Source: Nitrososphaera viennensis EN76
GTDB lineage: Archaea > Thermoproteota > Nitrososphaeria > Nitrososphaerales > Nitrososphaeraceae
Reading direction: 5' to 3'
Length of the DNA: 32,000 bases
Assembly (NCBI RefSeq): GCF_000698785.1
Contig: NZ_CP007536.1
Span: forward strand, 1,200,001-1,232,000
In this document: positions 2,142 through 19,395 of the stretch, piece by piece
Numbering within the stretch: position 1 is the stretch's first letter
How the letters are laid out: each line of letters opens with the position of its first letter
Notes under the pieces: model-generated
What the model saw: only the letters and a program-made list of their open reading frames with translations
Told to the model about the DNA's origin: nothing
Databases searched by the model: none
Made by a program: the position numbers and the translations under genes

Positions 2142-2186
2142 TTTATTTAACCGGCATAAATTCAGCCTTTGAATAATAGGGCGTTG

Positions 2187-2202
2187 TGGTTTATTCTACG
2201 AA
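2187..2202 (+). promoter_or_regulatory. Degenerate copy of the TGGTACA-N4-CCGAA motif upstream of the BNR/DsbD operon
   Basis: TGGTTTA-TTCT-ACGAA matches 5/7 and 4/5 of the two half-sites. It lies directly distal to the TATA-like element at 2167-2182, the same layout as most of the strong copies. Confidence 0.3.
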
Positions 2203-2315
2203 TGAACCAGTCTGCATTCAATCGATCAACCGCGCGTAAAACAAGAAAAAAGAAGAAGAGGGGCCGGCCGCAGCAAGCCATTGCGAACAAGGCGCCGGTT
2301 GGCGACGTAAAGAAA

Positions 2316-4244: not shown

Positions 4245-4288
4245 GAGGATATAGAGTGCATACGCGATAATTAAGACTTTCAGCAGAT

Positions 4289-9606: not shown

Positions 9607-9641
9607 AGATGTAGAAACCGGTCATCCTTTAATTAGGGTTC

Positions 9642-9657
9642 TAGTACACCGGCCGAA
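9642..9657 (+). promoter_or_regulatory. Motif copy 1: TAGTACA-CCGG-CCGAA
   Basis: Lies 36 nt upstream of ATG 9606. Read in the gene direction: TTCGG-ccgg-TGTACTA, 5 nt, CTAATTAAAGG (TATA), 21 nt, ATG. Confidence 0.6.
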
Positions 9658-9669
9658 GTAGTAGCAGTT

Positions 9670-10233
9670 TTAGATCTTGTTTCTAGAGTGCAAATAGACT
9701 GCAATGCCGGCGATAACTGCCGCCGCAGGCGTCACGTAGTATAGCAACAGCTCGTCAAGTGGTATGCCGGGCGGAAATGCGCTCACGTCAAAGCTTGCCA
9801 CAAGGGGCTGCGACGCGTATTTTGCATCGCCGGGGATGCGGGTCTGCACGGTCACGACGTAGCTTCCCGGCGTGTCAAACACATACCTTGTCGTGATGTC
9901 GCTTATCTCGTACAGGCGGTAGGGCTCCTGATGAATCGGGTTGCCCGTCTGCTTGTCCGCAATCACCACTGATGTGTAGACATTGTAGATGTTGTTGCCG
10001 TCGCTGGCAAGCACGCTAAAGTTGAGAGTCGAGTTGGTGCCGGTTATCGGGCTTGCAGGGTACGGCTGGAAGATTATCTGGTATCCGTCCACTTCCTTTG
10101 TGGTGCCGAAAAAGTGGGCGTACGCCGGCACAAAGAACATGCCTGTAAAAAAGAGCATGACGACTGCAAGGAAGTGCAGTGACAACAACAACAGCAGCAG
10201 CATCGGCCTGTTTTGGCGCTTTGCATATTTCAA
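9670..10233 (-). CDS. Exported, C-terminally anchored FixH/YtkA-like beta-sandwich protein
   Basis: Signal peptide ...FFVPAYA|HFFGT. Ig-like pattern VDGYQIIFQPYPASPITGTNSTLNFSV...PGSYVVTVQ. C-terminal TM helix plus SRNKI. The start may be TTG 10233 or ATG 10203. Confidence 0.75.
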   Translation of the reverse strand: MKYAKRQNRPMLLLLLLSLHFLAVVMLFFTGMFFVPAYAHFFGTTKEVDGYQIIFQPYPASPITGTNSTLNFSVLASDGNNIYNVYTSVVIADKQTGNPIHQEPYRLYEISDITTRYVFDTPGSYVVTVQTRIPGDAKYASQPLVASFDVSAFPPGIPLDELLLYYVTPAAAVIAGIAVYLHSRNKI

Positions 10234-10242
10234 CCATCATGC

Positions 10243-10258
10243 TGGTACATCTGCCGGA
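10243..10258 (+). promoter_or_regulatory. Motif copy 2: TGGTACA-TCTG-CCGGA
   Basis: Lies in the 157-nt gap upstream of gene 9670-10233, 10-40 nt from the candidate starts. Confidence 0.55.
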
Positions 10259-10390
10259 TGAACCACAACTACTAATATGCAAACAATGCGTAATCTACCC
10301 TGTAGCGCCAGTTCGCTGCAGAGAAAAAATGCATATGCCTGTTCATTGCACGGCGGGGAGAGCCTTTCTCCTCCCCTCCCTTCCGTGCCA

Positions 10391-10924
10391 TCAGGCTTGT
10401 TCCTTTGCCTTCTTTCTATTTCTGCGCATTATCACTATTGCGCCTGCAACTGCCGCCCCGGCAGCCCCGATCCCGGGCGCGACAGTGTAGAGGTAATAGT
10501 CGTTCTGGCCTGCCACGTCAAGTTCGAATATAAAAGTCAGGGTCTGGCCGCTGTAGGCGTTGTCTGTAAGGTCTGCATAAAGAACGTACCTGCCCGGCTC
10601 TGCAAAAGTGCGGTCGTACGCATAGTGGCCGTACGGGACTATTACCGGGCCGACCGCTGCGACTTCGGCGCCGTCCTTGACCAGCCTTATCTTTACCGGC
10701 ACGTCCACCAGGTCGTCGCCGTTGACGCCGGCAATCCTCATCACCACCTTTGCAGGCTCGCCGGCCACCAGCCTGGCCGGCTCGGTGGCGACCTCAAAGT
10801 CATAGTTGCCTAACCTCTGCTTGTACACGGCGTTCTTTAGCGGATCGGCAAACGCCGGCTGCGCGACCAGCAGGAAAATGGCCGCAAGAGCCACTGCGCA
10901 CGCAAGCGACTTTAACGACAGCAA
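10391..10924 (-). CDS. Exported, C-terminally anchored FixH/YtkA-like beta-sandwich protein
   Basis: Signal peptide ...VAQPAFA|DPLKN. Pattern YDFEVATEPARLVAGEPAKVVMRI...EPGRYVLYADL. C-terminal TM helix plus RRNRKKAKEQA. TTG start 8 nt after the regulator's stop codon. Confidence 0.75.
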   Translation of the reverse strand: MLSLKSLACAVALAAIFLLVAQPAFADPLKNAVYKQRLGNYDFEVATEPARLVAGEPAKVVMRIAGVNGDDLVDVPVKIRLVKDGAEVAAVGPVIVPYGHYAYDRTFAEPGRYVLYADLTDNAYSGQTLTFIFELDVAGQNDYYLYTVAPGIGAAGAAVAGAIVIMRRNRKKAKEQA

Positions 10925-10932
10925 CAGCTATG

Positions 10933-11451
10933 CTAGAGCTCGTCCAACATTTCAACGTAATTGTCGACGACCTTGTCGGCAAAGGTCCGGCGGTACTTTG
11001 ACAGCACGTCGGCGATGAGATCCTTGTTCGCAAGGCTGTACAGCTGGTACTCGCCGTACCTGACGGACAGTATGCCGGCATCCTTCAGGCGCTTCAGGTG
11101 CGCCGAAACGGTGGAAGGCGCTTTTCCCGTGTGCTCCACTATTTCTGCAAAGGTGCACATGTCCTGCGACAGTATGAATGACACTATCTCGCGTATCGGC
11201 TCGTGCCTGATGTAGCCAAGCACCTGCGACTCGCTTTCCGGCACGTTGACAGGGTAATAGCGGGTGATGCGCGCCTGCTGCCTGTCCACCCTCACCACGC
11301 TTGCCCTTTCAAGGGCGGACAGATGGTACGTCAGCACGCCGTTTGCAAGGCCGGTCGACCGCAAGAGCTCGCGGTAGCGGATGCCCGGCTCGCGCTCGAT
11401 GAGGTTCAGGAGGAGATCCTGGGTGCTGACGGTCTCTGACACTTCTTCCAT
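10933..11451 (-). CDS. Transcriptional regulator with two tandem winged-helix (ArsR-like) domains
   Basis: wHTH 1: GIRYRELLRSTGLANGVLTYHLSALERASVVRV. wHTH 2: CTFAEIVEHTGKAPSTVSAHLKRLKDAGILSV. The ATG is 1 nt after the stop of the upstream 4-TM gene, and AGGTGA lies 9 nt upstream. Confidence 0.85.
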   Translation of the reverse strand: MEEVSETVSTQDLLLNLIEREPGIRYRELLRSTGLANGVLTYHLSALERASVVRVDRQQARITRYYPVNVPESESQVLGYIRHEPIREIVSFILSQDMCTFAEIVEHTGKAPSTVSAHLKRLKDAGILSVRYGEYQLYSLANKDLIADVLSKYRRTFADKVVDNYVEMLDEL

Positions 11452-11452
11452 C

Positions 11453-11860
11453 TCACTTGTTCACCTTAAGCACTCCTAGCCCGAACAGGCTGAGCATTGC
11501 AAGCACGATGATGTGCGGGAATTCTATATCAAGATTGGGGATCTGCAAAAAGAACAAGAGCCCGACTGCCTGGAACAGGTAGAACACCTCTGCGATTCCG
11601 AGCGCGATGAACCCAAGCGTCATGTAAAGCGTCCTTGCCCCGCCTGTGCGCCTGTACGCAGTCAGCGAGACAATGCTGAGGAACGAGGCTATCACGAGGC
11701 TTGCGATGTGGAGGAGGATGTGGGACAGCATGGACGGGTGCGTGACGTGCGGGAGAACGAGGGGCGCAATGATGCCTACCACTATGGCCGCGGTGAGCCC
11801 AAATACCAGAGGCTTTGACGCCGTCGCCTCCTGAACAGGCTGGTTACTACCCGTCTGCAT
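11453..11860 (-). CDS. 4-TM membrane protein with a His-rich first loop, translationally coupled to the double-wHTH regulator
   Basis: Four hydrophobic helices. The stretch LPHVTHPSMLSHILLH carries four His residues. It has its own TATA box and a motif copy upstream. Confidence 0.75.
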   Translation of the reverse strand: MQTGSNQPVQEATASKPLVFGLTAAIVVGIIAPLVLPHVTHPSMLSHILLHIASLVIASFLSIVSLTAYRRTGGARTLYMTLGFIALGIAEVFYLFQAVGLLFFLQIPNLDIEFPHIIVLAMLSLFGLGVLKVNK

Positions 11861-11878
11861 CCACCAATAAATTGGTGG
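11861..11878. promoter_or_regulatory. Perfect palindrome CCACCAAT-AA-ATTGGTGG between the TATA box and ATG 11860 (candidate operator)
   Basis: 8-bp arms with a 2-bp spacer, directly abutting the start codon of the 4-TM/regulator operon. This position should cover the transcription start. Confidence 0.5.
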
Positions 11879-11898
11879 TTTTGGCCTAATAAAGGGAT

Positions 11899-11914
11899 TG
11901 GTACAAAGCCAGAA
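11899..11914 (+). promoter_or_regulatory. Motif copy 3: TGGTACA-AAGC-CAGAA
   Basis: Read in the gene direction: TTCTG-gctt-TGTACCA, 5 nt, TTTATTAGG (TATA), 24 nt, ATG 11860. Confidence 0.6.
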
Positions 11915-11928
11915 TTAGCTATAGCCAG

Positions 11929-13860
11929 CTAGCCCAGCGCGGCAAGCGTCTTTTTCATCTGCAGCCGGCTCTGCCTCGCATAAAAGGCGCTCCCGCCTGC
12001 CACCGCCGCTGCAAGGCCCAGCGCAAGGGCCGCAAACGAGTCAAAGCTTGGCAGCATTTCCGTGTTGCTGTCTTCTTCATCCATCTCAGGCATCGCAGGC
12101 ATTCCCGGCGGCATGGCCTGCCCGCTTACCAGAGTCTCGGTAAAGCTGTGGTTCAGGTCGTACGCGTTTACCCTCTGCGCGATAAAGTCCATCTTCCATT
12201 CGCCTGCCTGGCTCAGGTAGCCTCCGGTGGCCGAATAAACGCCGTCGCCGGTTTTTTGCAGCGTGACTACCAGCGGCCCCACCCCGGCGTCCACGTTTGT
12301 GAGCCGCAGCACCACGCTTGCAATGTTTTGCGGGGGATTGGTGCCTCCTTCCAAAAGCGTGGCGGTAAACGTGTTGACCCCCGGCTGGAAAGGAGATATT
12401 TCCAGCGCGATGTCAACACCGTCCACGTTCACGCGGTGCATAAAATGCGGGCCGGACTGCTGATGCGTCGTCATGGCCTGTGCGGGCGGCGACGTTATCG
12501 TGAGAAAAGAGGCTGCAAGTAGCACTCCTATCCCGACAAGCGCCTCGGCCTTGACGGTCCTGCCAAAGCGCGACGTGGCCGCGTATTCCTGGCCGCCGGA
12601 TCTTGCAAGCACGACTATTTCCCGGTGCAGCCTGAGCTGGTGGTACGCCCCAAGGAGCACCATGGGAAGGGCGGCTGCAAGTTTTGTTGCCAAGCTTGTC
12701 CCGTACGGCGTGGAAAAGAGCGAGTCCAGCGCGTGCAGGTGGACCCACGCCATGTAGATCCCAGTCACGCCGATGACCCCAAGCGACACGGTGGCTACGA
12801 GCGAAAATCTTGGCAGCGCGGTCGCAAGCTGGCGTGGCGACCGCCTTGTCGCCGGCGCAAACACTAAAGCCAGGTAGAACAGGCCCCCGACCCACGCGGA
12901 CACGGCCATAAAGTGGGCCCAGTCAAGCGCCGTCGCAAGCGCAGGCAGGAACGGCGCGGCAGAGTTGTGGCTCAGCATGCTGTTTGAGAACAGCGAGACC
13001 GCGCCTGCCGCAAGGATGGCGTACAGCAGCAGTAGTAGTAGCGGCTTTTTGTCGCCTTTTTTCATCATGCAGGCAAGGACCGCGCCGGCTGCTACCACTA
13101 TTGCCGACGCTGCAAGCCGGATTAGCCATACGGCGCCGGCTGGCGAGCTTGCAACAAGTGACTGCGCGGCCTGCCCAAGCGGGACGCCGGCGGCCTCGGC
13201 AAGGTTGCCGGCCTGCAAGAGCATGATCACTGTGGCAGACGCGGCCACGGCGCCTGCGCTTGCAAGCAGGATGATTGAAAACCTGCGCAGGAAACGGCCT
13301 GCTGCTCCTTCTTCTTCAAGCTTTTTCCGCAGGATTGCGTGCGCCATCGCCCCGCCGACGATTGCCGTCTGCGCTACGATGAGGGGCCACTTGGCAAGCG
13401 CGTCTTCGTACGACGTGACGTACCGCGTCTCACTTGGCCCTCCTGCCGGCACCACCTCATGGCCCATGCCAAAGACGTACGCGCCTTCCGTGATGTGCCC
13501 GTCGTCAAGCGACATCGTGAACCACGACACCGTGTATATGCCGTCCCTGACCTTGCCTGTATCCAGCGTCACGGCAGCCTGCCTGCCGTTTTCGCCAATG
13601 ACTGCAAAGTCGTTGTTGTCGATGCGCTGGCCCTGCGCGTCTGCAACCCGGATGTAGCTCACATTCGGGTCTGGGCGCTCTGAAAACGATATTGCTAGCT
13701 GTTGCGGGAGCTCGGATTTTTCGTGGAACTGCGCGTTTGGCGCAATTGAATATTTCACAGGCACCGCGTGGCCAAATGCAGGCTCTATCGCTGCTGAGGG
13801 CAGCAACAGCGCTAGGGCTGCCAGTGCAAAAACAATGAGGAGGGGCCGGCGGCTTGACAT
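11929..13860 (-). CDS. copCD: CopC-CopD fusion with a C-terminal FixH/YtkA-like domain, a Met-rich linker and a terminal TM helix
   Basis: I place the start at ATG 13860 (MSSRRPLLIVFALAALALLLPSAAIEPAFG|HAVPVKYS). The CopC domain has an N-terminal His and SLDDGHITEGAYVFG (the D-x-H motif). About 8 CopD-like TM helices follow. The Ig-like domain reads VDIALEISPFQPGVNTFTATL...GEWKMDF. The Met-rich stretch is QAMPPGMPAMPEM. The track's upstream extension to 13968 overlaps the upstream gene and is basic junk. Confidence 0.9.
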   Translation of the reverse strand: MSSRRPLLIVFALAALALLLPSAAIEPAFGHAVPVKYSIAPNAQFHEKSELPQQLAISFSERPDPNVSYIRVADAQGQRIDNNDFAVIGENGRQAAVTLDTGKVRDGIYTVSWFTMSLDDGHITEGAYVFGMGHEVVPAGGPSETRYVTSYEDALAKWPLIVAQTAIVGGAMAHAILRKKLEEEGAAGRFLRRFSIILLASAGAVAASATVIMLLQAGNLAEAAGVPLGQAAQSLVASSPAGAVWLIRLAASAIVVAAGAVLACMMKKGDKKPLLLLLLYAILAAGAVSLFSNSMLSHNSAAPFLPALATALDWAHFMAVSAWVGGLFYLALVFAPATRRSPRQLATALPRFSLVATVSLGVIGVTGIYMAWVHLHALDSLFSTPYGTSLATKLAAALPMVLLGAYHQLRLHREIVVLARSGGQEYAATSRFGRTVKAEALVGIGVLLAASFLTITSPPAQAMTTHQQSGPHFMHRVNVDGVDIALEISPFQPGVNTFTATLLEGGTNPPQNIASVVLRLTNVDAGVGPLVVTLQKTGDGVYSATGGYLSQAGEWKMDFIAQRVNAYDLNHSFTETLVSGQAMPPGMPAMPEMDEEDSNTEMLPSFDSFAALALGLAAAVAGGSAFYARQSRLQMKKTLAALG

Positions 13861-13883
13861 GGCTAGGGAAAAAAGATGGGGCG

Positions 13884-14639
13884 CTACTTGTTGTTGCTGC
13901 CGCCGCGCCTTGCCATTGCCACAGCGCCTATGGCTATGCCCACTATGCCAAGGCCGATTCCCGCCCACGCCATGCCGCCATCACTTCCACCTGATGCTGC
14001 CGGCGGCGCCTTGACGGACGCAACGTCGCTCTGGACCTGCGCAATGGCCTTGCTCACGTCGTTGTTCTGCATGTATGGCTCGGGGAACCCTGCGTCGGTT
14101 CGCGACTCAAAGCAGCCATAGCCTCCGGCTACACCCTTTCTCACCACGCCTTCTGACACCGTGACGGCAGAGTTGTCTGGCTGCGCGCCAGCCTCGCCTG
14201 CAGGGGTGCACGAGAACGTGAGGTCGACCGGCGTGTTGTTTATCGTCCCGAATATGCGGTACGTGTACGTCGTCGCAATGGTCGGGTAGAACGGCGCGCT
14301 GTACTGGCCTGGCGAGTTGAAGACGGGCTCTAGTGGCATCTCTTTCTTTTTGTCCCCTGCGCCGATCTCAACCTTTAGTGTCTGCTCAAGGCCCGTGACA
14401 GGAGTCGCTCCTGCCGCGCGAGAGTTCATCGGGTCGCTCGGGTCTGCGTTGAGGACGCGAAGGTCAACCCCGGTCTTGTCGTCCACAAACGCAGGCTCGT
14501 TGAGCGAGCCTATCACTATCAAGTAGTCCTTGCCGCCTATCGTGTAGAGCTGGCGCTGGTGCGCATAGGCCGGCGCCGCAAAAGCGCCTGTCAAGAGGAG
14601 CGCTATCGCTACCCCAACCATAATTATTGCTAGTTTCAT
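13884..14639 (-). CDS. Exported, C-terminally anchored protein with a mature N-terminal His; tentatively YcnI/DUF1775-like
   Basis: Signal peptide ...GAFAAPAYA|HQRQLYTIGGKDYLIVIGSLNEP. The spacing from His1 to the N-E pair resembles the His1...VPNE spacing of YcnI. A C-terminal TM helix and basic tail match YcnI architecture. The gene lies immediately upstream of copCD. Confidence 0.8.
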   Translation of the reverse strand: MKLAIIMVGVAIALLLTGAFAAPAYAHQRQLYTIGGKDYLIVIGSLNEPAFVDDKTGVDLRVLNADPSDPMNSRAAGATPVTGLEQTLKVEIGAGDKKKEMPLEPVFNSPGQYSAPFYPTIATTYTYRIFGTINNTPVDLTFSCTPAGEAGAQPDNSAVTVSEGVVRKGVAGGYGCFESRTDAGFPEPYMQNNDVSKAIAQVQSDVASVKAPPAASGGSDGGMAWAGIGLGIVGIAIGAVAMARRGGSNNK

Positions 14640-14674
14640 GCAGGTATTGGAAGCTATAGAAAATTTAAGAAAAG

Positions 14675-14690
14675 TGGTACATTAGGCGAA
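14675..14690 (+). promoter_or_regulatory. Motif copy 4: TGGTACA-TTAG-GCGAA
   Basis: Read in the gene direction: TTCGC-ctaa-TGTACCA, 6 nt, TTAAATTT (TATA), 21 nt, ATG 14639. Confidence 0.6.
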
Positions 14691-14716
14691 TGTCCTACTG
14701 ACATGCAAGATGATTA

Positions 14717-17683
14717 TTAGCTCTGACCTTTCATCGCCATACGGACGTTGCGCTTCAGGTCTGTTGCGCTCTTGGCGTACATCATGGCGCTTATCGCTAT
14801 GCCAGCGGCTATCGCGGGCCCGGCAAGGTCGGCAAGCGAAAAGCCGACGTTTGTCACAGGGCTTGCCGTTTCTTCTGGCGCGCCTGCGCCTCCCGGCTGC
14901 TGCGGCGCCGGCGCGGAAGGCTTGGCCGTTATCGCGATGCTGCCAAGGGCTGATCCTTGCTGTTCTGCAAACCAGATCTTGCCCTTGTCGTCAGCGACCA
15001 AGTATTGAATGGTCGAGCCCGAGGTCGGTATCTTGGCCTCAGCACTTGCCCCTGTCCTTGGATCGAATACGGCGACCCGGTCTATTGTGTGCAGTGCAAC
15101 CCATATGTTGCCATAGCTGTCAGCCGCCATTCCAAAGGGCAGGCCGGCGTCGTTCAGGGCAGGATACTCGCGGAACGTCTCAAAGAGCGGGTTGAATGCC
15201 GTGACAGTGTGCCCTTCATGCTCGGTGACAAAGAGGTCGTGGCCGTTTGGATCAGGGAATATGGAAGTAGGTATTATGAGCTTGTTCTGGCCCTTTGGCG
15301 CGTATTCCGTGATGTTGCCAGTTGCAGGATCTATGATTGCGATCTTGCCTACCGCCGATTCTGGCATCCACAGGTTGCCATTACGGTCTACCGATAGAGC
15401 TACAGGTCCGGAGTTGGGCGACGGTATATCTATTGCAGAGAATTTTTCAGAGCGTGGGTCAAACTTGAAGACTTTGTTTGGCTGAGACACTGGCATCCAC
15501 AGGTTGCCATTGCGATCTATTGCAAGACCTGTTGCTATGCCGTTTTCTGACAGTTGGAATTTGCGGTCTTGCTTTGTTTGTGGGTCGTACTGCCCAAGAT
15601 ATGATGGCAAGGATGTTGACGGTGGCGGCGGGCTAATATACCACAACTTGCCGTCGCTGCCAAGTGCCACCATTGTGACAAGGTTGGCACTATCTGGACG
15701 GCTGCTCAATTTGTGTACCGTATAGTTGCCTGTAGCAGTGTCAAATTGGAATATTCTGCTTGAACCCGGATTCGTGTCGCCGACCCATATCGACTGACGA
15801 GCCGCGTCGAATACAGGGTACAACAAGAGGCTCTTTTCCGGCGTCTTGTACTCCTTGACCTCAAATCCGAGGCTCGATATCGCCGGCCTTACAGTGACGT
15901 CAAGGCTTGCGACGATGTTTGACGCGGAGGAGCGCACGCCTTCCACCTGGATAGACCACACGCCCGGCAGGCTGAAAGCCGCGTCTGCGGCAAACGTGCC
16001 GTCCTGCTGGCGCGTCGTGTTGATGCTTATCGGGCCTATCCCCTTTTCGACCTGCGTAAGCTTTATCGTTGCAGCGCTGACGTCTGTAGCAGGCTTGTTG
16101 TCACTGCCAGCGAACGCAAGCGTGAACCTGTTCTGGCCCACGGCAAACGGGTCCACCGCGAGGTTTACCTTGCCGTCAGGAGCGTACAGCGTCTGGGTGA
16201 ATTTTGTGGATGCGGCAGCGGCTGTCTGCTGCGTGGCGGCAAACGCTTCCTGCGAATCCTGTGGCTTGCCGTACTGCGGGAACTCGCCGGCGGGAAGCGA
16301 GCTGTTGGCCATTATGGACACCATCAGGAGCAGCGCTATGCCGACGCCGGCCTCTGCCTTCAAGCTCTTGGCAAAGCGCCCATAGCCGTTTGACTGGACT
16401 GAAGAGCCCCCTACCATTGCGACCGTCGCCTTTTTCTGTATCACAAACTGCGAGTATCCGCCCATTGCGACCATCACGCCGGCAAGGCCCAGCTTGATCG
16501 CAAGGACCTTGCCGTACGTGGACGCAAGCGTCAATGAAAGGTCGCTCTCGATGAGGAAAAGCAAGAGAGGACCGGTTATGATCGCAATGCCAAGTATCGT
16601 GACCACTATTGTGGAAAAGCGCGGTATCAGGATTGAGATCGCTGCGGCCCTTGCGCGCTCGTCAGGCATCGCAAGGATCTTTGGCACTGCCACAAAGCCC
16701 ATCAGTATCAGGCCGCCTATCCAGATGCTTGCGGCGGTGTTGTGGAAAAAGTCAAGCAGGATTGCAGTTATCTGTCCGGTGGCCGCGCCATGCGCTATCA
16801 GGCTTGACGTCACGAGCACCGCAAGGCCCATTACGAGTATCGCAAGCATCTCGGCCCTGCTTGGGAGCGCGCCGGTCCGGGTCAGCTTGCGGTACACAAA
16901 CACAGCGATTATCATTAGGATGGACGACTCGATCATGCGCGTCGTCCAGACGTTGCCAAACTTGGTCGCTATCGCCTGGGCTATCCCCGCGTTGATGTCG
17001 ATCGCCTGCACGGCTATCATGGCAAAGTTTGAGCCAATCACGATGGCCGCGCCGATTATGATGAGTTTTACCATCTTCCGGTCGATTGCGGCGCGCTGGG
17101 AGGATATTGCGCCTGCAAGCCATGGCACGCGCGCAAGCGGCTTCCACAGCCACAGCGAGCCAAACGCCGCGCCCACAACTATCACCTGCCCGACCATGCC
17201 GGGGAACCTTGACGCCGACTCTAGTGGAGACAGGATCTGCGAGGGTGGCGTCGCAGGGCCCGCGCCAGGCGTTACGGCGGTGCCTATCCCAAACGTAAAG
17301 GCGCTTTCTACCACGTGGCCGTCAACTGCGGAAAGCACTCTTGTGGTGACGGTGTAGATGCCGTCAGGCAAGCCCGGCTGCAGTGAAACTCCAAGGGTCT
17401 GGGTGTCGCCTCCCACGTTGTGGGGGTCGTTCTTGTCGACCCGCGCTCCGTCAGGGGCAAGCACCGACATCGTGCTGTACGAGAGCTCTATCGGCTCTGT
17501 GAACGTGACCGTCACCTCTGCCGGCGAGGAAGACAAGCTCTGAAACGGTTTGGGAGAAGAGCTTACTGTTATCGGGTGTGCAAAGGACTGCTGCTGCGGC
17601 GGCATGCCTGCAATGGCGAGCGTCGCCACTACCATGGCAACGGCAACGACGTACAGCAGTGACTGTGGCCGGCCAGACAACAC
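14717..17683 (-). CDS. CopC-CopD-Ig-like fusion extended by a beta-propeller (NHL / streptogramin-lyase-like) and a C-terminal TM anchor
   Basis: Signal peptide ...PPQQQSFA|HPITVSSSP. CopC motif SAVDGHVVESAFTFG. About 8-10 CopD TM helices. Ig-like domain VNLAVDPFAVGQNRFTLAF...GVWSIQV. The propeller blades carry repeated D(R/S)xGNLW(M/V) motifs: DRNGNLWMP twice, DSYGNIWVA, DDKGKIWFA, GSDGKLWYI. The terminal TM helix is IAAGIAISAMMYA. Confidence 0.9.
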   Translation of the reverse strand: MLSGRPQSLLYVVAVAMVVATLAIAGMPPQQQSFAHPITVSSSPKPFQSLSSSPAEVTVTFTEPIELSYSTMSVLAPDGARVDKNDPHNVGGDTQTLGVSLQPGLPDGIYTVTTRVLSAVDGHVVESAFTFGIGTAVTPGAGPATPPSQILSPLESASRFPGMVGQVIVVGAAFGSLWLWKPLARVPWLAGAISSQRAAIDRKMVKLIIIGAAIVIGSNFAMIAVQAIDINAGIAQAIATKFGNVWTTRMIESSILMIIAVFVYRKLTRTGALPSRAEMLAILVMGLAVLVTSSLIAHGAATGQITAILLDFFHNTAASIWIGGLILMGFVAVPKILAMPDERARAAAISILIPRFSTIVVTILGIAIITGPLLLFLIESDLSLTLASTYGKVLAIKLGLAGVMVAMGGYSQFVIQKKATVAMVGGSSVQSNGYGRFAKSLKAEAGVGIALLLMVSIMANSSLPAGEFPQYGKPQDSQEAFAATQQTAAAASTKFTQTLYAPDGKVNLAVDPFAVGQNRFTLAFAGSDNKPATDVSAATIKLTQVEKGIGPISINTTRQQDGTFAADAAFSLPGVWSIQVEGVRSSASNIVASLDVTVRPAISSLGFEVKEYKTPEKSLLLYPVFDAARQSIWVGDTNPGSSRIFQFDTATGNYTVHKLSSRPDSANLVTMVALGSDGKLWYISPPPPSTSLPSYLGQYDPQTKQDRKFQLSENGIATGLAIDRNGNLWMPVSQPNKVFKFDPRSEKFSAIDIPSPNSGPVALSVDRNGNLWMPESAVGKIAIIDPATGNITEYAPKGQNKLIIPTSIFPDPNGHDLFVTEHEGHTVTAFNPLFETFREYPALNDAGLPFGMAADSYGNIWVALHTIDRVAVFDPRTGASAEAKIPTSGSTIQYLVADDKGKIWFAEQQGSALGSIAITAKPSAPAPQQPGGAGAPEETASPVTNVGFSLADLAGPAIAAGIAISAMMYAKSATDLKRNVRMAMKGQS
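15361..15511. repeat. Intragenic blade repeat: a 22-nt perfect repeat one blade (129 nt) apart
   Basis: CTGGCATCCACAGGTTGCCATT occurs at 15361-15382 and 15490-15511. Both copies encode the NGNLWMP blade motif. Confidence 0.85.
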
Positions 17684-17727
17684 GATCGTAATACGCGCCG
17701 GACCATATTTGACTCTTGCTTACTTTA

Positions 17728-17743
17728 TGGTACAAATCCCGAA
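17728..17743 (+). promoter_or_regulatory. Motif copy 5: TGGTACA-AATC-CCGAA
   Basis: Lies 45 nt upstream of GTG 17683. Read in the gene direction the motif abuts CATAAAGTAAG, and a second TATA-like AAATAT lies about 25 nt from the start. Confidence 0.6.
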
Positions 17744-17781
17744 CTGGAATCTTGAGTACAAATCCCGAACTGGAATCTTGA
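17730..17781 (+). repeat. Perfect 26-bp tandem duplication (two units), containing motif copies 5 and 6
   Basis: GTACAAATCCCGAACTGGAATCTTGA occurs at 17730-17755 and again at 17756-17781. Confidence 0.95.
17754..17769 (+). promoter_or_regulatory. Motif copy 6: GAGTACA-AATC-CCGAA (within the tandem duplicate)
   Basis: This is the second unit of the 26-bp tandem repeat. Confidence 0.5.
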
Positions 17782-17872
17782 TTTGTGGCTAATTACCTTG
17801 TAACTAGACCCACAGTTACCGTCGTACCAATGCCATGAAAAGGGTCGAGTATTATAGCATGGCACGATTCAT

Positions 17873-17882
17873 GTTTTAAACC
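17873..17882 (+). promoter_or_regulatory. Consensus TATA box GTTTTAAACC with no ORF downstream
   Basis: The same 10-mer forms the predicted TATA boxes of fbp (24841-24850) and ppdK (28503-28512). Here the next listed ORF start is about 300 nt away. Confidence 0.45.
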
Positions 17883-17908
17883 TTCTCACAAGATTACGGT
17901 AAAGATAT

Positions 17909-17924
17909 TTTACGGCTTTACGGC
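17909..17924 (+). repeat. Tandem 8-mer TTTACGGC (two units)
   Basis: Perfect duplication located at the predicted transcription start for the orphan TATA box. Confidence 0.8.
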
Positions 17925-17995
17925 AAATTTAATTAGCAGCGCTTACCACAGGTTACCATACGTTACGTTAAACCTAGGGTAAAACTTGACGCAAA

Positions 17996-18065
17996 GTAGC
18001 AGGTGGCTCTCACGCTCAGCGACCCTCGCTGATGGGTTGGGCGTGTTGGCCGGGCCACCTGCTAT
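17996..18065 (+). ncRNA. GC-rich structured element: long outer stem enclosing an inner hairpin; candidate small RNA or DNA structural site
   Basis: AGCAGGTGGC (17998-18007) pairs perfectly with GCCACCTGCT (18054-18063), extendable by T17997-A18064. The inner hairpin is TCAGCG-ACCCT-CGCTGA (18016-18032). It is a GC-rich patch inside AT-rich DNA and is flanked by paired TTACCA(C/T)A boxes. Confidence 0.3.
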
Positions 18066-18153
18066 TACTTCTGACTGCCTGTACTGATTTTAAACATTGC
18101 TGTCTTTACCATATTTTACAGTAATTTACCACATGCTCGAAAGGTAACAAAAT

Positions 18154-18213
18154 GTATGCCAAAGTATGCTAGAGTATGCAAAGGCATGCTAGAGTATGCA
18201 AAAACATGTTGAA
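18154..18213 (+). repeat. Six 10-bp-phased units built on GTATGC
   Basis: GTATGC starts at 18154, 18164, 18174 and 18194. GCATGC starts at 18184 and ACATGT at 18204. A 20-bp higher-order unit (18164-18183 against 18184-18203) is 18/20 identical. Confidence 0.85.
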
Positions 18214-18274
18214 AGAACTGCACGGGTGCGGCGGGCGAAAAGCTGCAGCAATAAAGTCATATAACAAGGCCATA

Positions 18275-18691
18275 ATGTCCAAGTCAATGTCTGTACTCGA
18301 TTACCTGCTTCATCATAGCACTGCCAGTTCTTCTATTCTAGTAGCGTTAGCGGTAGGTATTTTTACAATTTTGACACTGTTTACTCAAGTTGCTATTGGC
18401 TCATTTGCGTGGATAGTATTGTCAATCACCTATGTATTTACTTGTATTGCCGGCATTCTCATATTTCGCAATTGGGCCGTTGCAGAAATATTGTTACGTC
18501 ACTTCTCACAAGAGAATACAGGCGATACCGAAGTAAACCTGCATGCAATAGTCGGCGAAAGCAAGATAAGAAAGATGTTCTTTTTTGAACCATTTGCTAA
18601 CAAAGATACATTTTATCTGGCAGCGCTAATCGTGATTGTTTTCTTGGCTATCATCATTTGGGCTGCTTTTGCATTTCAACTCTACCACTAA
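18275..18691 (+). CDS. Small 3-TM membrane protein, unknown function (island ORF)
   Basis: MSKSMSVLDYLLHHSTASSSILVALAVGIFTILTLF... has three hydrophobic helices. The track start at 18176 would translate the GTATGC repeat array, so I prefer ATG 18275. The start remains uncertain. Confidence 0.5.
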   Translation: MSKSMSVLDYLLHHSTASSSILVALAVGIFTILTLFTQVAIGSFAWIVLSITYVFTCIAGILIFRNWAVAEILLRHFSQENTGDTEVNLHAIVGESKIRKMFFFEPFANKDTFYLAALIVIVFLAIIIWAAFAFQLYH

Positions 18692-18830
18692 CACCGTGGC
18701 CAGCATTTCACCAATCGTCATGAATGGGTCCATTGTGACAAGATTGGCACCCCTACGCACCTTGTAGTACCTTTCAAGGCGTTGTCGCACCCGTGCGCTT
18801 TTTATTCAAGCATATCTTTTTGCAGTATGA

Positions 18831-19265
18831 TTGTCATCTAACAAGAGCCAAGTCGATTTTGACTGTCCGTGGTGTGGCAAGTATCAAAGTAAACAGGTTT
18901 ACAACGGTGCAGAAACCGAGACGATTTGTTCAGAATGCAAAAAGCTCGTTGGTATTATTACAGATGCAACAGGCAAGCCTATAGTCATAGCCACAAAGGT
19001 GCATAAGTCAACGCTAACACTAAGCCCAGAAATGGCCGAGACCAAGCTCGGTAAGACCGAGGCCGATATTGAGAAGGCAAGAAAGGAGGCAGAAAGACGC
19101 GGTTTGGTGGTTGAAAGCAAAGTCTACGGTGCTGCGATTGAAATCATAGACAGATTGCGTGATCAGTTGAAACAACAAGACGAAATGTCGAAAGAAATTA
19201 TGAGATTGAAAGAACAAATCGAATTGCTTAACAAACGTATCGAGCTTTATAGAATACTCAAATGA
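18831..19265 (+). CDS. Zinc-ribbon plus coiled-coil protein (island ORF)
   Basis: CPWC-x17-CSEC zinc ribbon, then a long heptad-like C-terminus (EADIEKARKEAERRG...LKQQDEMSKEIMRLKEQIELLNKRIELY). The TTG start is supported by TATA CTTTTTATTC about 29 nt upstream. Confidence 0.6.
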   Translation: MSSNKSQVDFDCPWCGKYQSKQVYNGAETETICSECKKLVGIITDATGKPIVIATKVHKSTLTLSPEMAETKLGKTEADIEKARKEAERRGLVVESKVYGAAIEIIDRLRDQLKQQDEMSKEIMRLKEQIELLNKRIELYRILK

Positions 19266-19339
19266 TATCATATCTGGACGGACCTATTTTGACATTTCAA
19301 GCGAGTCAGATTCAGAAACCAACTAAGAATATTCAGTTG

Positions 19340-19355
19340 TGGTACAAATCCCGAA
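19340..19355 (+). promoter_or_regulatory. Motif copy 7: TGGTACA-AATC-CCGAA
   Basis: Lies 40 nt upstream of ATG 19396 and about 13 nt upstream of TATA GATTATAAGC. It is in the opposite orientation relative to its gene compared with copies 1-6. Confidence 0.55.
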
Positions 19356-19395
19356 CAATCATCAAAGATTATAAGCACTGCAAGATAATTTTTCC

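What the first reader, a model, noticed from the sequence alone, without database searches (positions are those of the whole stretch)
9642..19356. Conserved 16-bp promoter motif T[GA]GTACA-N4-[CG][CA]G[AG]A heading the copper-cluster transcription units
Seven full copies occur at 9642, 10243, 11899, 14675, 17728, 17754 and 19340. All are on the + strand and all are in intergenic DNA, which is only about 10% of the window. For copies 1, 3 and 4 the gene-direction reading is TTCGG-N4-TGTACCA, then 5-6 nt, then a TATA box, then about 21-24 nt, then the start codon, so the motif occupies the BRE position. In my manual scan, the only coding TGGTACA (31505) and the only coding TAGTACA (8964) both lack the second half-site. 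The genes headed by the motif are the two CopCD fusions (one via the YcnI-like gene), the His/Met-rich protein, two beta-sandwich proteins and the 4-TM/regulator operon. From memory, published copper-limitation transcriptomics in Nitrososphaera viennensis put copC/D and dsbD among the most induced genes and mentioned conserved upstream motifs. I cannot verify whether that motif is this one. The regulator and its mode of action are unknown to me.
Basis: partly seen in the sequence, partly recalled or inferred. Interest (0 to 1): 0.85.

Follow-up and report, generated by a model that had tools for sequence, protein, structure and literature searches.

The report
Published copper-starvation promoter motif of Nitrososphaera
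The repeated 16-base motif is real, but it is the copper-limitation promoter motif already published in 2020 for this same archaeon and these same genes; what I add is that it is conserved at the same promoters in dozens of related species and always precedes one local regulator gene.

Summary
There are 6 exact copies and 1 one-mismatch copy, all on the + strand and all intergenic, against 0.05 expected by chance.

The window is Nitrososphaera viennensis EN76 (NVIE_014160-014460). The motif is the reverse complement of 5'-TTCSGSMTTTGWACYANT-3', which Reyes et al. 2020 (PMC7785015) reported upstream of these same copper-limitation-induced genes. The finding is therefore already known.

- Only 5 sites are independent. 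Copies 17728, 17754 and 19340 come from one ancestral site, split by a 1.6-kb N. viennensis-specific insertion with 17-bp direct repeats.
- The motif lies just upstream of the BRE, usually 6 nt before the TATA box. At two promoters it is 17 and 12 nt from the TATA box.
- The copy at 10243 heads a gene that is not induced.

New here:
- In 79 related loci, TTCK-N5-TGTACYA occurs 176 times against about 2 expected, at the same promoters.
- It is in the promoter of the 4-TM/regulator operon in at least 52 of 68 loci, out to Nitrosocaldus.
- The regulator has two different winged-helix domains, which fits the asymmetric two-part site.
- The 4-TM partner has an invariant His/Met cluster.

Most likely reading: an upstream activating site for a copper-limitation regulon, probably bound by NVIE_014280. 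This is inferred, not shown.

The parts
9642..9657 (-). Motif copy 1. On the gene strand it reads TTCGGCCGGTGTACTA. Then 6 nt, TATA TAATTAAA (9628-9635), 21 nt, and the ATG of NVIE_014250 (His/Met-rich exported protein) at 9606.
   Evidence: The gene is induced +2.64 log2 under Cu limitation. The orthologous promoter carries the motif in 26 related loci.
10243..10258 (-). Motif copy 2, TCCGGCAGATGTACCA. The first half-site is off-consensus (TCCG). It lies 9 nt from TTGAAATAT (10225-10233). The probable ATG of NVIE_014260 is at 10203. This is probably a decayed site.
   Evidence: The gene is not induced (-0.03) and has the lowest expression of the set. In other species the spacing is 4-6 nt and the half-site is TTCG.
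11899..11914 (-). Motif copy 3, TTCTGGCTTTGTACCA. Then 5 nt, TATA TTTATTAG (11886-11893), and the ATG at 11860. This is the promoter of the operon NVIE_014290 (4-TM), NVIE_014280 (regulator) and NVIE_014270.
   Evidence: The operon is induced +2.72, +2.47 and +1.55. The strict motif is in this promoter in 52 of 68 loci, and one-mismatch versions occur in most of the rest.
14675..14690 (-). Motif copy 4, TTCGCCTAATGTACCA. Then 6 nt, TATA TTAAATTT (14661-14668), and the ATG at 14639. This is the promoter of NVIE_1457 and CopCD_a (NVIE_014300).
   Evidence: Induced +2.80 and +2.68.
17728..17743 (-). Motif copy 5, TTCGGGATTTGTACCA. Then 17 nt, AAATAT (17705-17710), 21 nt, and the GTG at 17683. This is the promoter of CopCD_b (NVIE_014310). 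It is also the left 17-bp direct repeat of the insertion.
   Evidence: Induced +2.20. The stretch from motif to CAAGCAAGAGTCAAATAT is conserved in 30 loci.
17754..17769 (-). Motif copy 6, TTCGGGATTTGTACTC, with one mismatch. It was created by a perfect 26-bp tandem duplication (17730-17755 and 17756-17781).
   Evidence: It corresponds to the paper's 'found twice in front of copC/D_b'.
19340..19355 (-). Motif copy 7, inverted relative to its gene. On the + strand, the motif is followed by 12 nt, ATTATAAG (19368-19375), 20 nt, and the ATG of NVIE_014340 at 19396. It is the right 17-bp direct repeat of the insertion.
   Evidence: Induced +1.44. The paper lists this site as 'opposite strand'. In 21 of 24 related loci, one single motif serves this gene and the divergent CopCD gene.
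17745..19339 (.). A 1,595-bp insertion, 42% G+C against 57% in the flanking genes. It carries NVIE_014320 (membrane protein), NVIE_014330 (Zn-ribbon plus coiled coil), five 10-bp iterons (18154-18203) and a G+C-rich hairpin (about 17995-18066).
   Evidence: The site is empty in N. evergladensis SR1. The insertion is absent from all 79 related loci. Its genes do not respond to Cu. Other details.
10933..11451 (-). NVIE_014280, a 172-aa regulator with two winged helix-turn-helix domains in one chain. It is my candidate for the factor that binds the motif.
   Evidence: Pfam matches PF24266 (residues 10-78) and HTH_5/ArsR (87-129). The AlphaFold model has pLDDT 84.8 and shows two wHTH units. Foldseek matches the C-terminal half to SmtB, CadC and CzrA. 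785 homologs were found.
11453..11860 (-). NVIE_014290, a 135-aa 4-TM protein and the first gene of the regulator operon. It carries an invariant P-H-x2-H-x2-M-x2-H-x3-H cluster plus E91, E113, H116 and M122. It is a candidate copper-sensing partner.
   Evidence: Alignment of 54 orthologs. It sits beside the regulator in 73 of 79 loci.
11929..17683 (-). The regulated cargo: CopCD_a (11929-13968), NVIE_1457 (13884-14639) and CopCD_b with a C-terminal beta-propeller (14717-17683).
   Evidence: Pfam CopC and CopD match both fusions, and Vgb_lyase/SGL matches CopCD_b.
2161..2209 (+). They are probably the paper's 'repeated, opposite strand' NVIE_1444 sites.
   Evidence: Read and matched by eye to the consensus quoted. 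Figure S8a is not held, so the identity is unconfirmed.

Best explanation
The motif is the already published cis-element of the copper-limitation regulon of Nitrososphaera viennensis. On the gene strand its core is TTCK-N5-TGTACYA.

It is an oriented, non-palindromic, two-part transcription-factor binding site. The two conserved blocks (TTCG and TGTACCA) are centred about 10 bp apart, so they lie on one face of the DNA helix. At most target promoters the site ends 6 nt upstream of the TATA box. That places it directly upstream of the BRE, at roughly -37 to -52 from a start codon that appears to coincide with the transcription start.

I infer that it works as an upstream activating site. A factor bound there when copper is scarce would help TFB/TBP load onto promoters of copper-acquisition genes: two CopC-CopD fusions and several exported His/Met-rich or beta-sandwich proteins.

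The most likely factor is the locally encoded NVIE_014280. Its own operon is headed by the motif, so it would be autoregulated. Its two unlike winged-helix domains could each read one half-site. The co-transcribed 4-TM protein, with an invariant His/Met cluster, is a plausible copper-sensing partner.

What is shown: the identity with the published motif, the copper-limitation induction of the genes (published RNA-seq), the promoter geometry, and the cross-species conservation.

What is inferred: activation rather than repression, the identity of the factor, and the sensing step.
For: Identity with the published motif:
- The window proteins are identical to N. viennensis EN76 entries.
- The published consensus and gene list match.
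- Transcription units behind 6 of the 7 copies are induced +1.4 to +2.8 log2.

Reality of the motif:
- 6 exact copies against 0.05 expected.
- In 966 kb from 79 related loci, TTCK-N5-TGTACYA occurs 176 times against 2.25 expected from shuffles. 154 are intergenic on a crude ORF map in which 27% of the DNA is intergenic. Most of the 22 scored 'coding' or 'edge' lie at the same syntenic promoter positions.

Orthologous promoters that carry it: the 4-TM operon (53 sites), CopCD (32), NVIE_014250-like (26), NVIE_014260-like (9), NVIE_1457-like (8) and divergent NVIE_014340-like (26).

Geometry: the profile of 180 sites shows an A-rich stretch at +18/19 and cTTAnTA at +22 to +28. Per-family spacings are conserved.

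For activation rather than repression:
- The site is upstream of BRE/TATA, the position at which archaeal regulators activate (TrmBL1, PMC4706686; TFB-RF1, PMC5937170).
- At the ancestral divergent CopCD/NVIE_014340 pair, a single site lies 17 and 12 nt from the two TATA boxes. That is too far to occlude either one.
- The extra 11 nt at the CopCD_b promoter equals one helical turn.
- The one decayed copy (10243: altered half-site and spacing) heads the gene with the lowest and non-inducible expression (7.5 log2 RPKM). Loss of an activator site would give that; loss of an operator would not.

For NVIE_014280 as the factor:
- The motif is in its own operon promoter in 52 of 68 loci, with one-mismatch forms in most of the others, down to regulators only 43% identical in Nitrosocaldus.
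- It has two wHTH domains in one chain.
- The other nearby regulator, NVIE_014200, is present in only 5 of 79 loci and has no motif.
Against: - There is no binding or mutational evidence anywhere. The library holds no follow-up to the 2020 paper.
- The related loci were fetched with the regulator as bait, so regulator-motif co-occurrence is partly built in. Only the conservation inside its own promoter is informative.
- ArsR-family proteins are classically repressors released by metal. With a site upstream of BRE that would still give induction at low copper only if the apo form activates.
- The regulator has no conserved canonical ArsR/SmtB metal ligands. Only H43, H83 and H118 are invariant, and Cys98 is not.
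- The most strongly induced genes in the window, NVIE_014210/014220 (+4.7), have no motif. NVIE_1444 (+4.2) has only degenerate copies. The motif therefore cannot explain the whole response.
- The target genes are already well expressed in copper-replete cultures (8-11.7 log2 RPKM). This fits either mode of control.
- A search for covariation between recognition helices and motif variants was inconclusive.
- Transcription start sites are inferred, not mapped.
Confidence: 0.6

Rival explanations
1. The same cis-element is an operator for a copper-dependent repressor. With copper bound, the factor sits next to the BRE and hinders TFB binding. When copper is scarce it leaves and the genes are derepressed. 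This is the logic of YcnK at the Bacillus subtilis ycnKJI copper-uptake operon.
For: - The regulator's C-terminal domain has the ArsR/SmtB repressor fold.
- At four promoter classes the motif abuts the 4-6 nt BRE slot, so steric interference with TFB is conceivable.
- Negative autoregulation of the regulator's own operon is common for metal sensors.
- YcnK is described as a Cu-dependent repressor of a CopCD-type importer operon (PMC8424229).
Against: - At the conserved divergent CopCD/NVIE_014340 pair, the single site is 17 and 12 nt from the two TATA boxes and cannot occlude either.
- Archaeal repressors characterised so far mostly bind over or downstream of the TATA box (TrmBL1).
- The decayed copy at 10243 goes with low, not high, constitutive expression.
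- No conserved metal-ligand set was found in the regulator.
Confidence: 0.28
2. One reading: the motif is an extended or alternative BRE. It would be a core-promoter element read directly by a specialised TFB paralog rather than by a separate regulator.
For: - The motif is directly upstream of the TATA region at most sites.
- As far as I recall, Nitrososphaerales genomes encode several TFB paralogs. This was not tested here.
Against: - The motif ends 4-6 nt before the TATA box, so the true BRE slot is that gap.
- At CopCD_b it is 17 nt away, and at NVIE_014340 it is inverted and 12 nt away. A BRE is fixed in both position and orientation.
- Non-regulon promoters in the window (EF-1alpha, fbp, ppdK, purP) have TTTTAAA-type TATA boxes without the motif.
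Confidence: 0.05
3. The repeats are not regulatory. They would be leftovers of promoter or gene duplication, or attachment sites of mobile DNA. Their association with copper genes would then be a by-product.
For: - Three of the seven copies do arise from an insertion and a tandem duplication.
- Foreign low-GC DNA sits exactly at this motif in two lineages.
- CopCD and the small exported proteins are paralog families.
Against: - Only the 11 specified positions are conserved, while the N5 spacer and the flanks differ between sites.
- The sites hold their position relative to the TATA box and start codon in dozens of species.
- The genes behind them are co-induced.
- Five sites in the window are independent of the insertion.
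Confidence: 0.03

Closest known systems
Cu-limitation 'upregulated gene' motif 5'-TTCSGSMTTTGWACYANT-3' of Nitrososphaera viennensis (Reyes et al. 2020, ISME J, PMC7785015)
   Same: The special cases also match: two copies before copC/D_b, the opposite strand before NVIE_014340, and the ArsR gene inside the regulon.
   Different: Nothing differs in kind. The text I searched has no mention of TATA or BRE and does not name the factor. It reports cross-species conservation only for its other motif, the one upstream of downregulated genes. The copy at 10243 and the insertion origin of three copies are not discussed in the text I could read.
TFB-RF1 (PF1088) upstream site in Pyrococcus furiosus (PMC5937170)
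   Same: [quoted passage not shown] The regulator is encoded as the downstream gene of a two-gene operon whose own promoter carries the site. It has a small regulon that includes transport functions.
   Different: The TFB-RF1 site is palindromic (TCTG-N5-CAGA), whereas this one is asymmetric. Activation and TFB recruitment are demonstrated for TFB-RF1 and only inferred here. Homology between the two regulators was not tested.
Bacillus subtilis ycnKJI copper-uptake operon with its repressor YcnK (PMC8424229)
   Same: A CopC-CopD fusion importer, small exported copper-binding proteins and a locally encoded HTH regulator. The paper calls the operon a copper-uptake system under the Cu-dependent repressor YcnK. 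Induction under copper limitation is from my own knowledge of the cited Chillappagari 2009 and Hirooka 2012 work.
   Different: It is bacterial, with sigma-factor promoters, and YcnK is a repressor. NVIE_1457 does not match the YcnI/DUF1775 family at E<=0.01.
Copper response elements (CuRE) with a GTAC core, bound by the SBP-domain factors CRR1 and SPL7 in algae and plants (PMC4158090)
   Same: A GTAC core in promoters of genes switched on by copper deficiency. The bound factor is an activator.
   Different: It is eukaryotic, and the zinc-finger SBP domain is unrelated to winged-helix proteins. The archaeal site needs a second block (TTCG) 10 bp away. This is a resemblance only, at most convergence.
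ArsR/SmtB metalloregulators (SmtB, CzrA, CadC) and the archaeal copper-excess regulator CopR/CopT (PMC7830388)
   Same: The C-terminal domain of NVIE_014280 has the ArsR/SmtB fold. The regulator sits beside metal-homeostasis genes.
   Different: - It has an extra N-terminal winged-helix domain.
- No conserved alpha3N or alpha5 metal ligands were found.
- It scores below the NCBIfam cut-off (50.4 against 55 bits).
- The target site is not an inverted repeat.
- The response is to copper shortage, not excess.

Membership tests
Published N. viennensis Cu-limitation motif (Reyes et al. 2020) | Sequence fits TTCSGSMTTTGWACYANT | tested here: met
   Compared by eye with the consensus. Copies 17728 and 19340 fit the first 17 of 18 positions. 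Copy 11899 has 1 mismatch. Copies 9642, 14675 and 10243 deviate only in the variable middle or at the ends.
Published N. viennensis Cu-limitation motif (Reyes et al. 2020) | Same organism and same named loci (NVIE_014290, 014310 twice, 014340 opposite strand) | tested here: met
   Seven proteins match AIC15665-15677 of strain EN76 exactly. The gene order and the expression table match.
Published N. viennensis Cu-limitation motif (Reyes et al. 2020) | Lies 35-70 nt upstream of the start codon of a gene induced by Cu limitation | tested here: met
   The distances fit. Six of the 7 copies head induced units. The copy at 10243 does not.
Archaeal BRE (TFB recognition element) | Directly adjoins the upstream edge of the TATA box, in fixed orientation | tested here: not met
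   The gap to the TATA box is 4-6 nt at most sites, 17 nt at CopCD_b, and 12 nt with inversion at NVIE_014340.
Archaeal BRE (TFB recognition element) | Present at promoters in general | tested here: not met
   It is absent from the EF-1alpha, fbp, ppdK, purP and NVIE_014240 promoters in the window.
Archaeal upstream activating site (TFB-RF1 / TrmBL1 type) | Factor site located upstream of BRE and TATA | tested here: met
   Profile of 180 sites and per-family consensus sequences.
Archaeal upstream activating site (TFB-RF1 / TrmBL1 type) | Target promoters have a weak BRE | tested here: inconclusive
   The slot is pyrimidine-rich next to the TATA box (ATCCC, GAACCC, CTTTTC), against purine-rich in a few control promoters. 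The sample is tiny and I know of no BRE consensus for this lineage.
Archaeal upstream activating site (TFB-RF1 / TrmBL1 type) | Bound factor increases TBP/TFB/RNAP recruitment | not testable with these tools
   Needs in vitro transcription or genetics.
ArsR/SmtB metalloregulators (for NVIE_014280) | ArsR-type winged helix-turn-helix fold | tested here: met
   Pfam HTH_5 scores 55.3 bits against a cut-off of 22. Foldseek matches SmtB, CadC and CzrA with probability 1.00.
ArsR/SmtB metalloregulators (for NVIE_014280) | Curated family threshold (NCBIfam NF033788) | tested here: not met
   50.4 bits against a cut-off of 55.
ArsR/SmtB metalloregulators (for NVIE_014280) | Conserved metal-binding ligands (alpha3N Cys or alpha5 His/Asp/Glu) | tested here: not met
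   Only H43, H83 and H118 are invariant. Two of these sit in the recognition helices. Cys98 is replaced in several homologs, and there is no His in the helix after the second wing.
ArsR/SmtB metalloregulators (for NVIE_014280) | Operator is an inverted repeat bound by a symmetric dimer | tested here: not met
   The conserved positions TTCG and TGTACYA are not mutually complementary.
ycnKJI-type copper-uptake operon | CopC-CopD fusion protein | tested here: met
   Both domains are found on 11929-13968 and on 14717-17683.
ycnKJI-type copper-uptake operon | YcnI (DUF1775) protein | tested here: not met
   NVIE_1457 has no Pfam or NCBIfam family at E<=0.01. Its fold was not examined.
Site-specific integrative element (for 17745-19339) | Foreign DNA flanked by direct repeats, with an empty site in a close relative | tested here: met
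   17-bp direct repeat, 42% against 57% G+C, and an empty site in N. evergladensis.
Site-specific integrative element (for 17745-19339) | Encodes an integrase or transposase, or is found at other locations | tested here: not met
   - The two ORFs have only weak PHROG hits of unknown function.
- No copies were found in the related loci.
- All exact-protein contexts have the same flanks.

The most novel reading that the evidence does not exclude
The motif, the tandem-winged-helix protein NVIE_014280 and the His/Met-rich 4-TM protein NVIE_014290 together form a self-activating copper-shortage sensor conserved across Nitrososphaerales.

In this reading the membrane protein senses copper at or in the membrane and controls the regulator. 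A single regulator chain reads the asymmetric site with its two unlike winged-helix domains. From a position just upstream of the BRE it recruits the basal transcription machinery to copper-uptake promoters.

As far as the held library shows, no copper-limitation sensor or regulator has been identified in ammonia-oxidising archaea. A membrane sensor coupled to an ArsR-like activator is also a design I did not find described.

A secondary reading: the same 17-bp site doubles as a preferred landing site for foreign DNA. There are independent low-GC insertions at it in N. viennensis and in Nitrososphaera sp. UBA217.
Probability: 0.3. Interest if true: 0.65.

Novelty: already known. Interest (0 to 1): 0.3.

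Why it matters
Ammonia-oxidising archaea depend on copper enzymes for nitrification, and how they sense and respond to copper scarcity is unknown. The motif has been published since 2020, so this finding adds no new discovery.

What this check adds:
- The element is conserved at the same promoters across the family, out to Nitrosocaldus.
- Its position relative to TATA/BRE favours activation.
- It is always present in front of one particular regulator operon.

This turns 'an unknown regulator' into a specific pair of proteins (NVIE_014280 and NVIE_014290) and a 16-bp probe for binding and transcription experiments.

Tried and rejected
- **RNA genes in the insert.** Rfam at E<=1 over 17000-20000 and ARAGORN over the whole window found nothing. 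The hairpin in the insert is not a known RNA or tRNA att site.
- **Relatives of the insert.** blastn, tblastn and tblastx of the insert against 79 related loci gave no hits. A PHROGs scan of the insert ORFs, and of the ORFs in the L020 insert, gave only weak hits of unknown function to the Zn-ribbon. Exact-protein contexts of NVIE_014330 are all N. viennensis with identical flanks. There is therefore no evidence that the insert is currently mobile. The 2019 catalogue of thaumarchaeal integrated elements (PMC6563490) was searched in its text only. I could not check its Table S2 for this segment.
- **Covariation.** I compared the regulator's recognition helices and wings with motif variants (TGCACCA clade, TTCGA and TTCTA forms). 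The differences are clade-bound and prove nothing.
- **BRE reading.** Rejected on spacing and orientation.
- **Canonical ArsR metal sensing by the regulator itself.** Rejected for lack of conserved ligands.
- **NVIE_014200 (3441-4244) as the factor.** Unlikely. It is in only 5 of 79 loci and has no motif in its divergent promoter. It may instead control the motif-less, most strongly induced NVIE_014210/014220.
- **Later literature.** Searches for the consensus string and for AOA copper regulators returned only the 2020 paper. HVO_0163, the namesake of the N-terminal domain family, has no functional study in the library.
- **Whole-genome enrichment.** The 966 kb of related loci were used instead.

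Full report
**1. The observation**

All are on the + strand. Dinucleotide-preserving shuffles give 0.05 matches on average and never 6. The only other one-mismatch hit is on the - strand at 24042-24057, inside the EF-1alpha gene. On my gene map about 6% of the window is intergenic, and all seven copies fall there.

**2. Where the window comes from, and what is already published**

Seven proteins of the window are 100% identical to entries of Nitrososphaera viennensis EN76 (AIC15665-AIC15677).

Reyes et al. 2020 (ISME J 14:2659, PMC7785015) analysed this organism under copper limitation. They reported a motif, 5'-TTCSGSMTTTGWACYANT-3', found 12 times 35-70 nt upstream of start codons of upregulated genes around the two copC/D genes. 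It occurs twice in front of copC/D_b (NVIE_014310) and on the opposite strand for NVIE_014340. It also lies in front of NVIE_014290, which is co-transcribed with the ArsR-family regulator NVIE_014280.

For example, the copy at 17728 reads TTCGGGATTTGTACCA on the gene strand. The finding is therefore the published motif, in the same genome, at the same genes. A search of the library for the consensus string and for later work on copper regulation in these archaea returned only this paper.

**3. Expression**

The paper's Dataset S1 gives these log2 fold changes under copper limitation.

| Gene | log2FC | Motif copy |
|---|---|---|
| NVIE_014250 | +2.64 | 9642 |
| NVIE_014260 | -0.03 | 10243 |
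| NVIE_014270 / 014280 / 014290 | +1.55 / +2.47 / +2.72 | 11899 |
| CopCD_a / NVIE_1457 | +2.68 / +2.80 | 14675 |
| CopCD_b | +2.20 | 17728, 17754 |
| NVIE_014320 / 014330 | -0.27 / -0.16 | none |
| NVIE_014340 | +1.44 | 19340 |

Six of the seven copies head induced units and one does not.

The most strongly induced genes in the window are NVIE_014210/014220 (+4.75 and +4.59), and their promoter has no motif. NVIE_1444 (+4.23) has only degenerate versions nearby, TTCAGCCTTTGAATAA at 2161-2176 and TTCTACGAATGAACCA at 2194-2209. The motif explains part of the response, not all of it.

**4. Three of the seven copies are one site**

Copies 17728 and 19340 share an identical 17-nt sequence, TGGTACAAATCCCGAAC. 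Copy 17754 is produced by a perfect 26-bp tandem duplication. Between the repeats lie 1,595 bp of 42% G+C DNA, against 57% in the flanking genes. This segment carries two genes that do not respond to copper.

In N. evergladensis SR1, the closest sequenced relative, the site is empty. It reads ...cttataatctttgatgattgTTCGGGGTTTGTACCAtaaagtaagcaagagtcaaatatgg..., which is exactly the left flank of the 19340 copy joined to the right flank of the 17728 copy.

In 21 of 24 related loci that hold both genes, a single motif sits between the divergent NVIE_014340-like and CopCD genes. The independent sites in the window therefore number five. The insert's genes are absent from all 79 related loci, and every exact-protein context is N. 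viennensis with the same flanks.

**5. Conservation in other species (not tested in the paper for this motif)**

Using the regulator as bait, I fetched 79 loci (966 kb) from Nitrososphaeraceae genomes and a few deeper lineages.

More distant loci showed that the fifth base is free (TTCGA and TTCTA forms).

The relaxed core TTCK-N5-TGTACYA occurs 176 times in 64 loci against 2.25 in shuffles. Of these, 154 lie outside a crude ORF map that leaves 27% of the DNA intergenic. Most of the 22 scored 'coding' or 'edge' are at the same syntenic promoter positions, which the crude ORF caller overran.

The genes immediately downstream are orthologs of those in the window: the 4-TM gene (53 sites), CopCD (32), NVIE_014250-like (26), NVIE_014260-like (9) and NVIE_1457-like (8). 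A divergent NVIE_014340-like gene is present at 26 sites.

**6. Anatomy of the promoters**

Aligning 180 sites on the motif gives invariant TTC at 1-3, G/T at 4, a free 5-nt spacer with A/T preferred at 9, then TGTACYA at 10-16. This is followed by A-rich positions 18-19 and cTTAnTA at 22-28.

- The dominant design is therefore motif, 6 nt, TATA box. The start codon lies 35-38 nt after the motif, about 25 nt after the TATA box, which suggests leaderless mRNAs. This is inference, because TSS are not mapped.
- In the window, the gap to the TATA box is 6 nt (9642), 5 nt (11899), 6 nt (14675) and 9 nt (10243).
- The CopCD_b class is different and very conserved. The motif is followed by 17 nt and then AAATAT, with CAAGCAAGAGTCAAATAT invariant in 30 loci. 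The extra 11 nt equal one helical turn.
- At NVIE_014340 the motif is inverted and lies 12 nt from ATTATAAG.

The motif thus sits just upstream of the BRE slot, at roughly -37 to -52, and not in it. Its distance and orientation vary in a way a BRE cannot.

The two conserved blocks are not complementary to each other, so the site is asymmetric and oriented. Their centres are about 10 bp apart.

**7. The decayed copy**

The copy at 10243 has TCCG instead of TTCG and is 9 nt from its TATA box. Orthologous promoters in L002, L003, L007 and L008 have 3-4 nt, and all but L002 have TTCG. N. evergladensis has 6 nt, and the closest MAG (L001) has 15 nt.

Its gene is the only one in the set that is not induced. 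It is also the lowest expressed, at 7.5 log2 RPKM in both conditions, against 8.0-11.7 rising to 11.0-14.4 for the others.

Loss of an activator site predicts low constitutive expression, and loss of an operator predicts high constitutive expression. This is a single case and only suggestive.

**8. How it most likely works**

In archaea, regulators that bind upstream of BRE/TATA activate, and those that bind over or downstream of TATA repress. This has been shown site by site for TrmBL1 (PMC4706686). [quoted passage not shown]

The present motif has that position. At the ancestral divergent promoter pair it is too far from either TATA box (17 and 12 nt) to block it. I therefore favour an upstream activating site that is occupied when copper is scarce (about 0.55-0.6). 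The alternative is a copper-dependent repressor that interferes with TFB next to the BRE (about 0.3). That would follow the logic of YcnK at the B. subtilis ycnKJI operon, which also controls a CopC-CopD fusion (PMC8424229).

**9. Which factor**

NVIE_014280 is the obvious candidate.

- The motif is in the promoter of its operon (4-TM gene, regulator, small exported protein) in 52 of 68 loci by the strict pattern. Most of the remainder have one-mismatch versions, for example TTCCGG.., TTCAGG.., TTTTG.. or TGCACCA. This holds down to regulators only 42-43% identical, in Nitrosocaldus and unnamed Nitrososphaerales.
- The protein has two winged helix-turn-helix domains in one chain. Pfam finds PF24266 at residues 10-78 and HTH_5/ArsR at 87-129. 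PDB sequence hits fall separately on each half. The AlphaFold model has pLDDT 84.8 and shows H-H-H-strand-strand twice, plus C-terminal helices.
- Foldseek matches only the C-terminal half to SmtB, CadC and CzrA. No solved regulator matches the whole architecture.
- Two unlike DNA-reading domains fit an asymmetric two-block site with 10-bp spacing. This is inference.
- The protein lacks conserved ArsR/SmtB metal ligands and scores just below the NCBIfam ArsR/SmtB cut-off. It probably does not sense copper in the classical way.
- Its operon partner, the 4-TM protein, has an invariant P-H-x2-H-x2-M-x2-H-x3-H cluster plus E91, E113, H116 and M122 in 54 orthologs. That looks like a copper site, so it may be the sensor. 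This is speculation.

Caveat: the loci were chosen through the regulator, so only the conservation inside its own promoter counts as evidence. A covariation test between recognition helices and motif variants was inconclusive. The other regulator in the window (3441-4244) is present in only 5 of 79 loci and has no motif.

**10. Comparison with known systems**

- The finding is a member of, and in fact identical with, the published N. viennensis motif.
- It works like archaeal upstream activating sites such as the TFB-RF1 site, but it is asymmetric and its activation is untested.
- It is not a BRE.
- The regulator has an ArsR-type fold but fails three other family criteria.
- The gene set resembles the bacterial ycnKJI copper-uptake operon in its CopCD fusion. 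However, NVIE_1457 is not detectably a YcnI, and the regulator is of another family.
- The GTAC core recalls the copper response elements bound by the SBP-domain activators CRR1 and SPL7 in algae and plants (PMC4158090). With unrelated proteins, this is coincidence or convergence.

**11. Verdict**

On novelty, the finding is already known.

The added value is cross-species conservation, promoter geometry, a concrete candidate regulator and sensor, and the insertion history. Interest is 0.3. The most novel reading not excluded is a conserved, self-activating membrane-sensor plus tandem-winged-helix activator circuit for copper shortage (probability about 0.3).

Noticed in passing
window 17745-19339: A 1.6-kb low-GC insertion specific to N. 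viennensis. It sits exactly at the regulatory motif and is flanked by 17-bp direct repeats of it. The site is empty in N. evergladensis. The insertion carries two genes that do not respond to copper and no recognisable integrase.
   Followed up: yes
L020 3592-5757 (Nitrososphaera sp. UBA217); also L015 near 280: An unrelated 2.1-kb insert of about 40% G+C sits at the same motif between the same two genes, again flanked by motif copies (one mismatch). It encodes small paralogous helical proteins and C2H2-like zinc-finger ORFs. Two independent insertions at one 16-17-bp site suggest a preferred integration target, or selection for keeping a motif copy on each side.
   Followed up: partly
L030 200-512, L031 6270-6579, L032 119-219: In these genomes the divergent gene pair has two non-identical motif copies 85-300 bp apart. 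In L030 and L031 a small membrane-protein ORF sits between them under the first copy. New genes seem to be recruited to the regulon at this spot.
   Followed up: partly
window 18154-18203: Five tandem 10-bp units (GTATGCnAAR) at the start of NVIE_014320 inside the insert. They look like iterons, as at a plasmid or viral origin or a binding array.
   Followed up: no
window 17995-18066: A G+C-rich hairpin inside the low-GC insert, with -43.3 kcal/mol and z = -4.4 against shuffles. It has no Rfam or tRNA match.
   Followed up: partly
window 17705-17727 and orthologous promoters (e.g. L013 6564-6590): The 17-18 nt between the motif and the TATA box of the CopCD_b promoter (CAAGCAAGAGTCAAATAT) are invariant in 30 loci. 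That is far more conserved than a spacer needs to be. It may be a second binding site or an unusual core promoter.
   Followed up: no
window 11453-11860: The 4-TM protein NVIE_014290 has an invariant PHxxHxxMxxHxxxH cluster plus E91, E113, H116 and M122 across 54 orthologs. It has no Pfam or NCBIfam family. It is a candidate membrane copper-binding protein.
   Followed up: partly
window 4245-4310 and 3441-4244: The most strongly copper-limitation-induced genes of the window, NVIE_014210/014220 (+4.7 log2), have no motif. They are divergent from the FilR1-like regulator NVIE_014200 (+1.0), which may control them through a second, unidentified element.
   Followed up: partly
window 10225-10258: The spacing between the motif and the TATA box at the NVIE_014260 promoter differs between close relatives: 9 nt here, 15 nt in L001, 6 nt in N. 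evergladensis and 3-4 nt in L002, L003, L007 and L008. In N. viennensis the gene is not induced. This is a natural spacing variant worth testing.
   Followed up: partly
window 14717-17683: CopCD_b carries a C-terminal beta-propeller of about 300 aa (Vgb_lyase / SGL-like repeats) fused after the CopC, CopD and YtkA-like parts. This is an unusual architecture for a CopCD protein.
   Followed up: no
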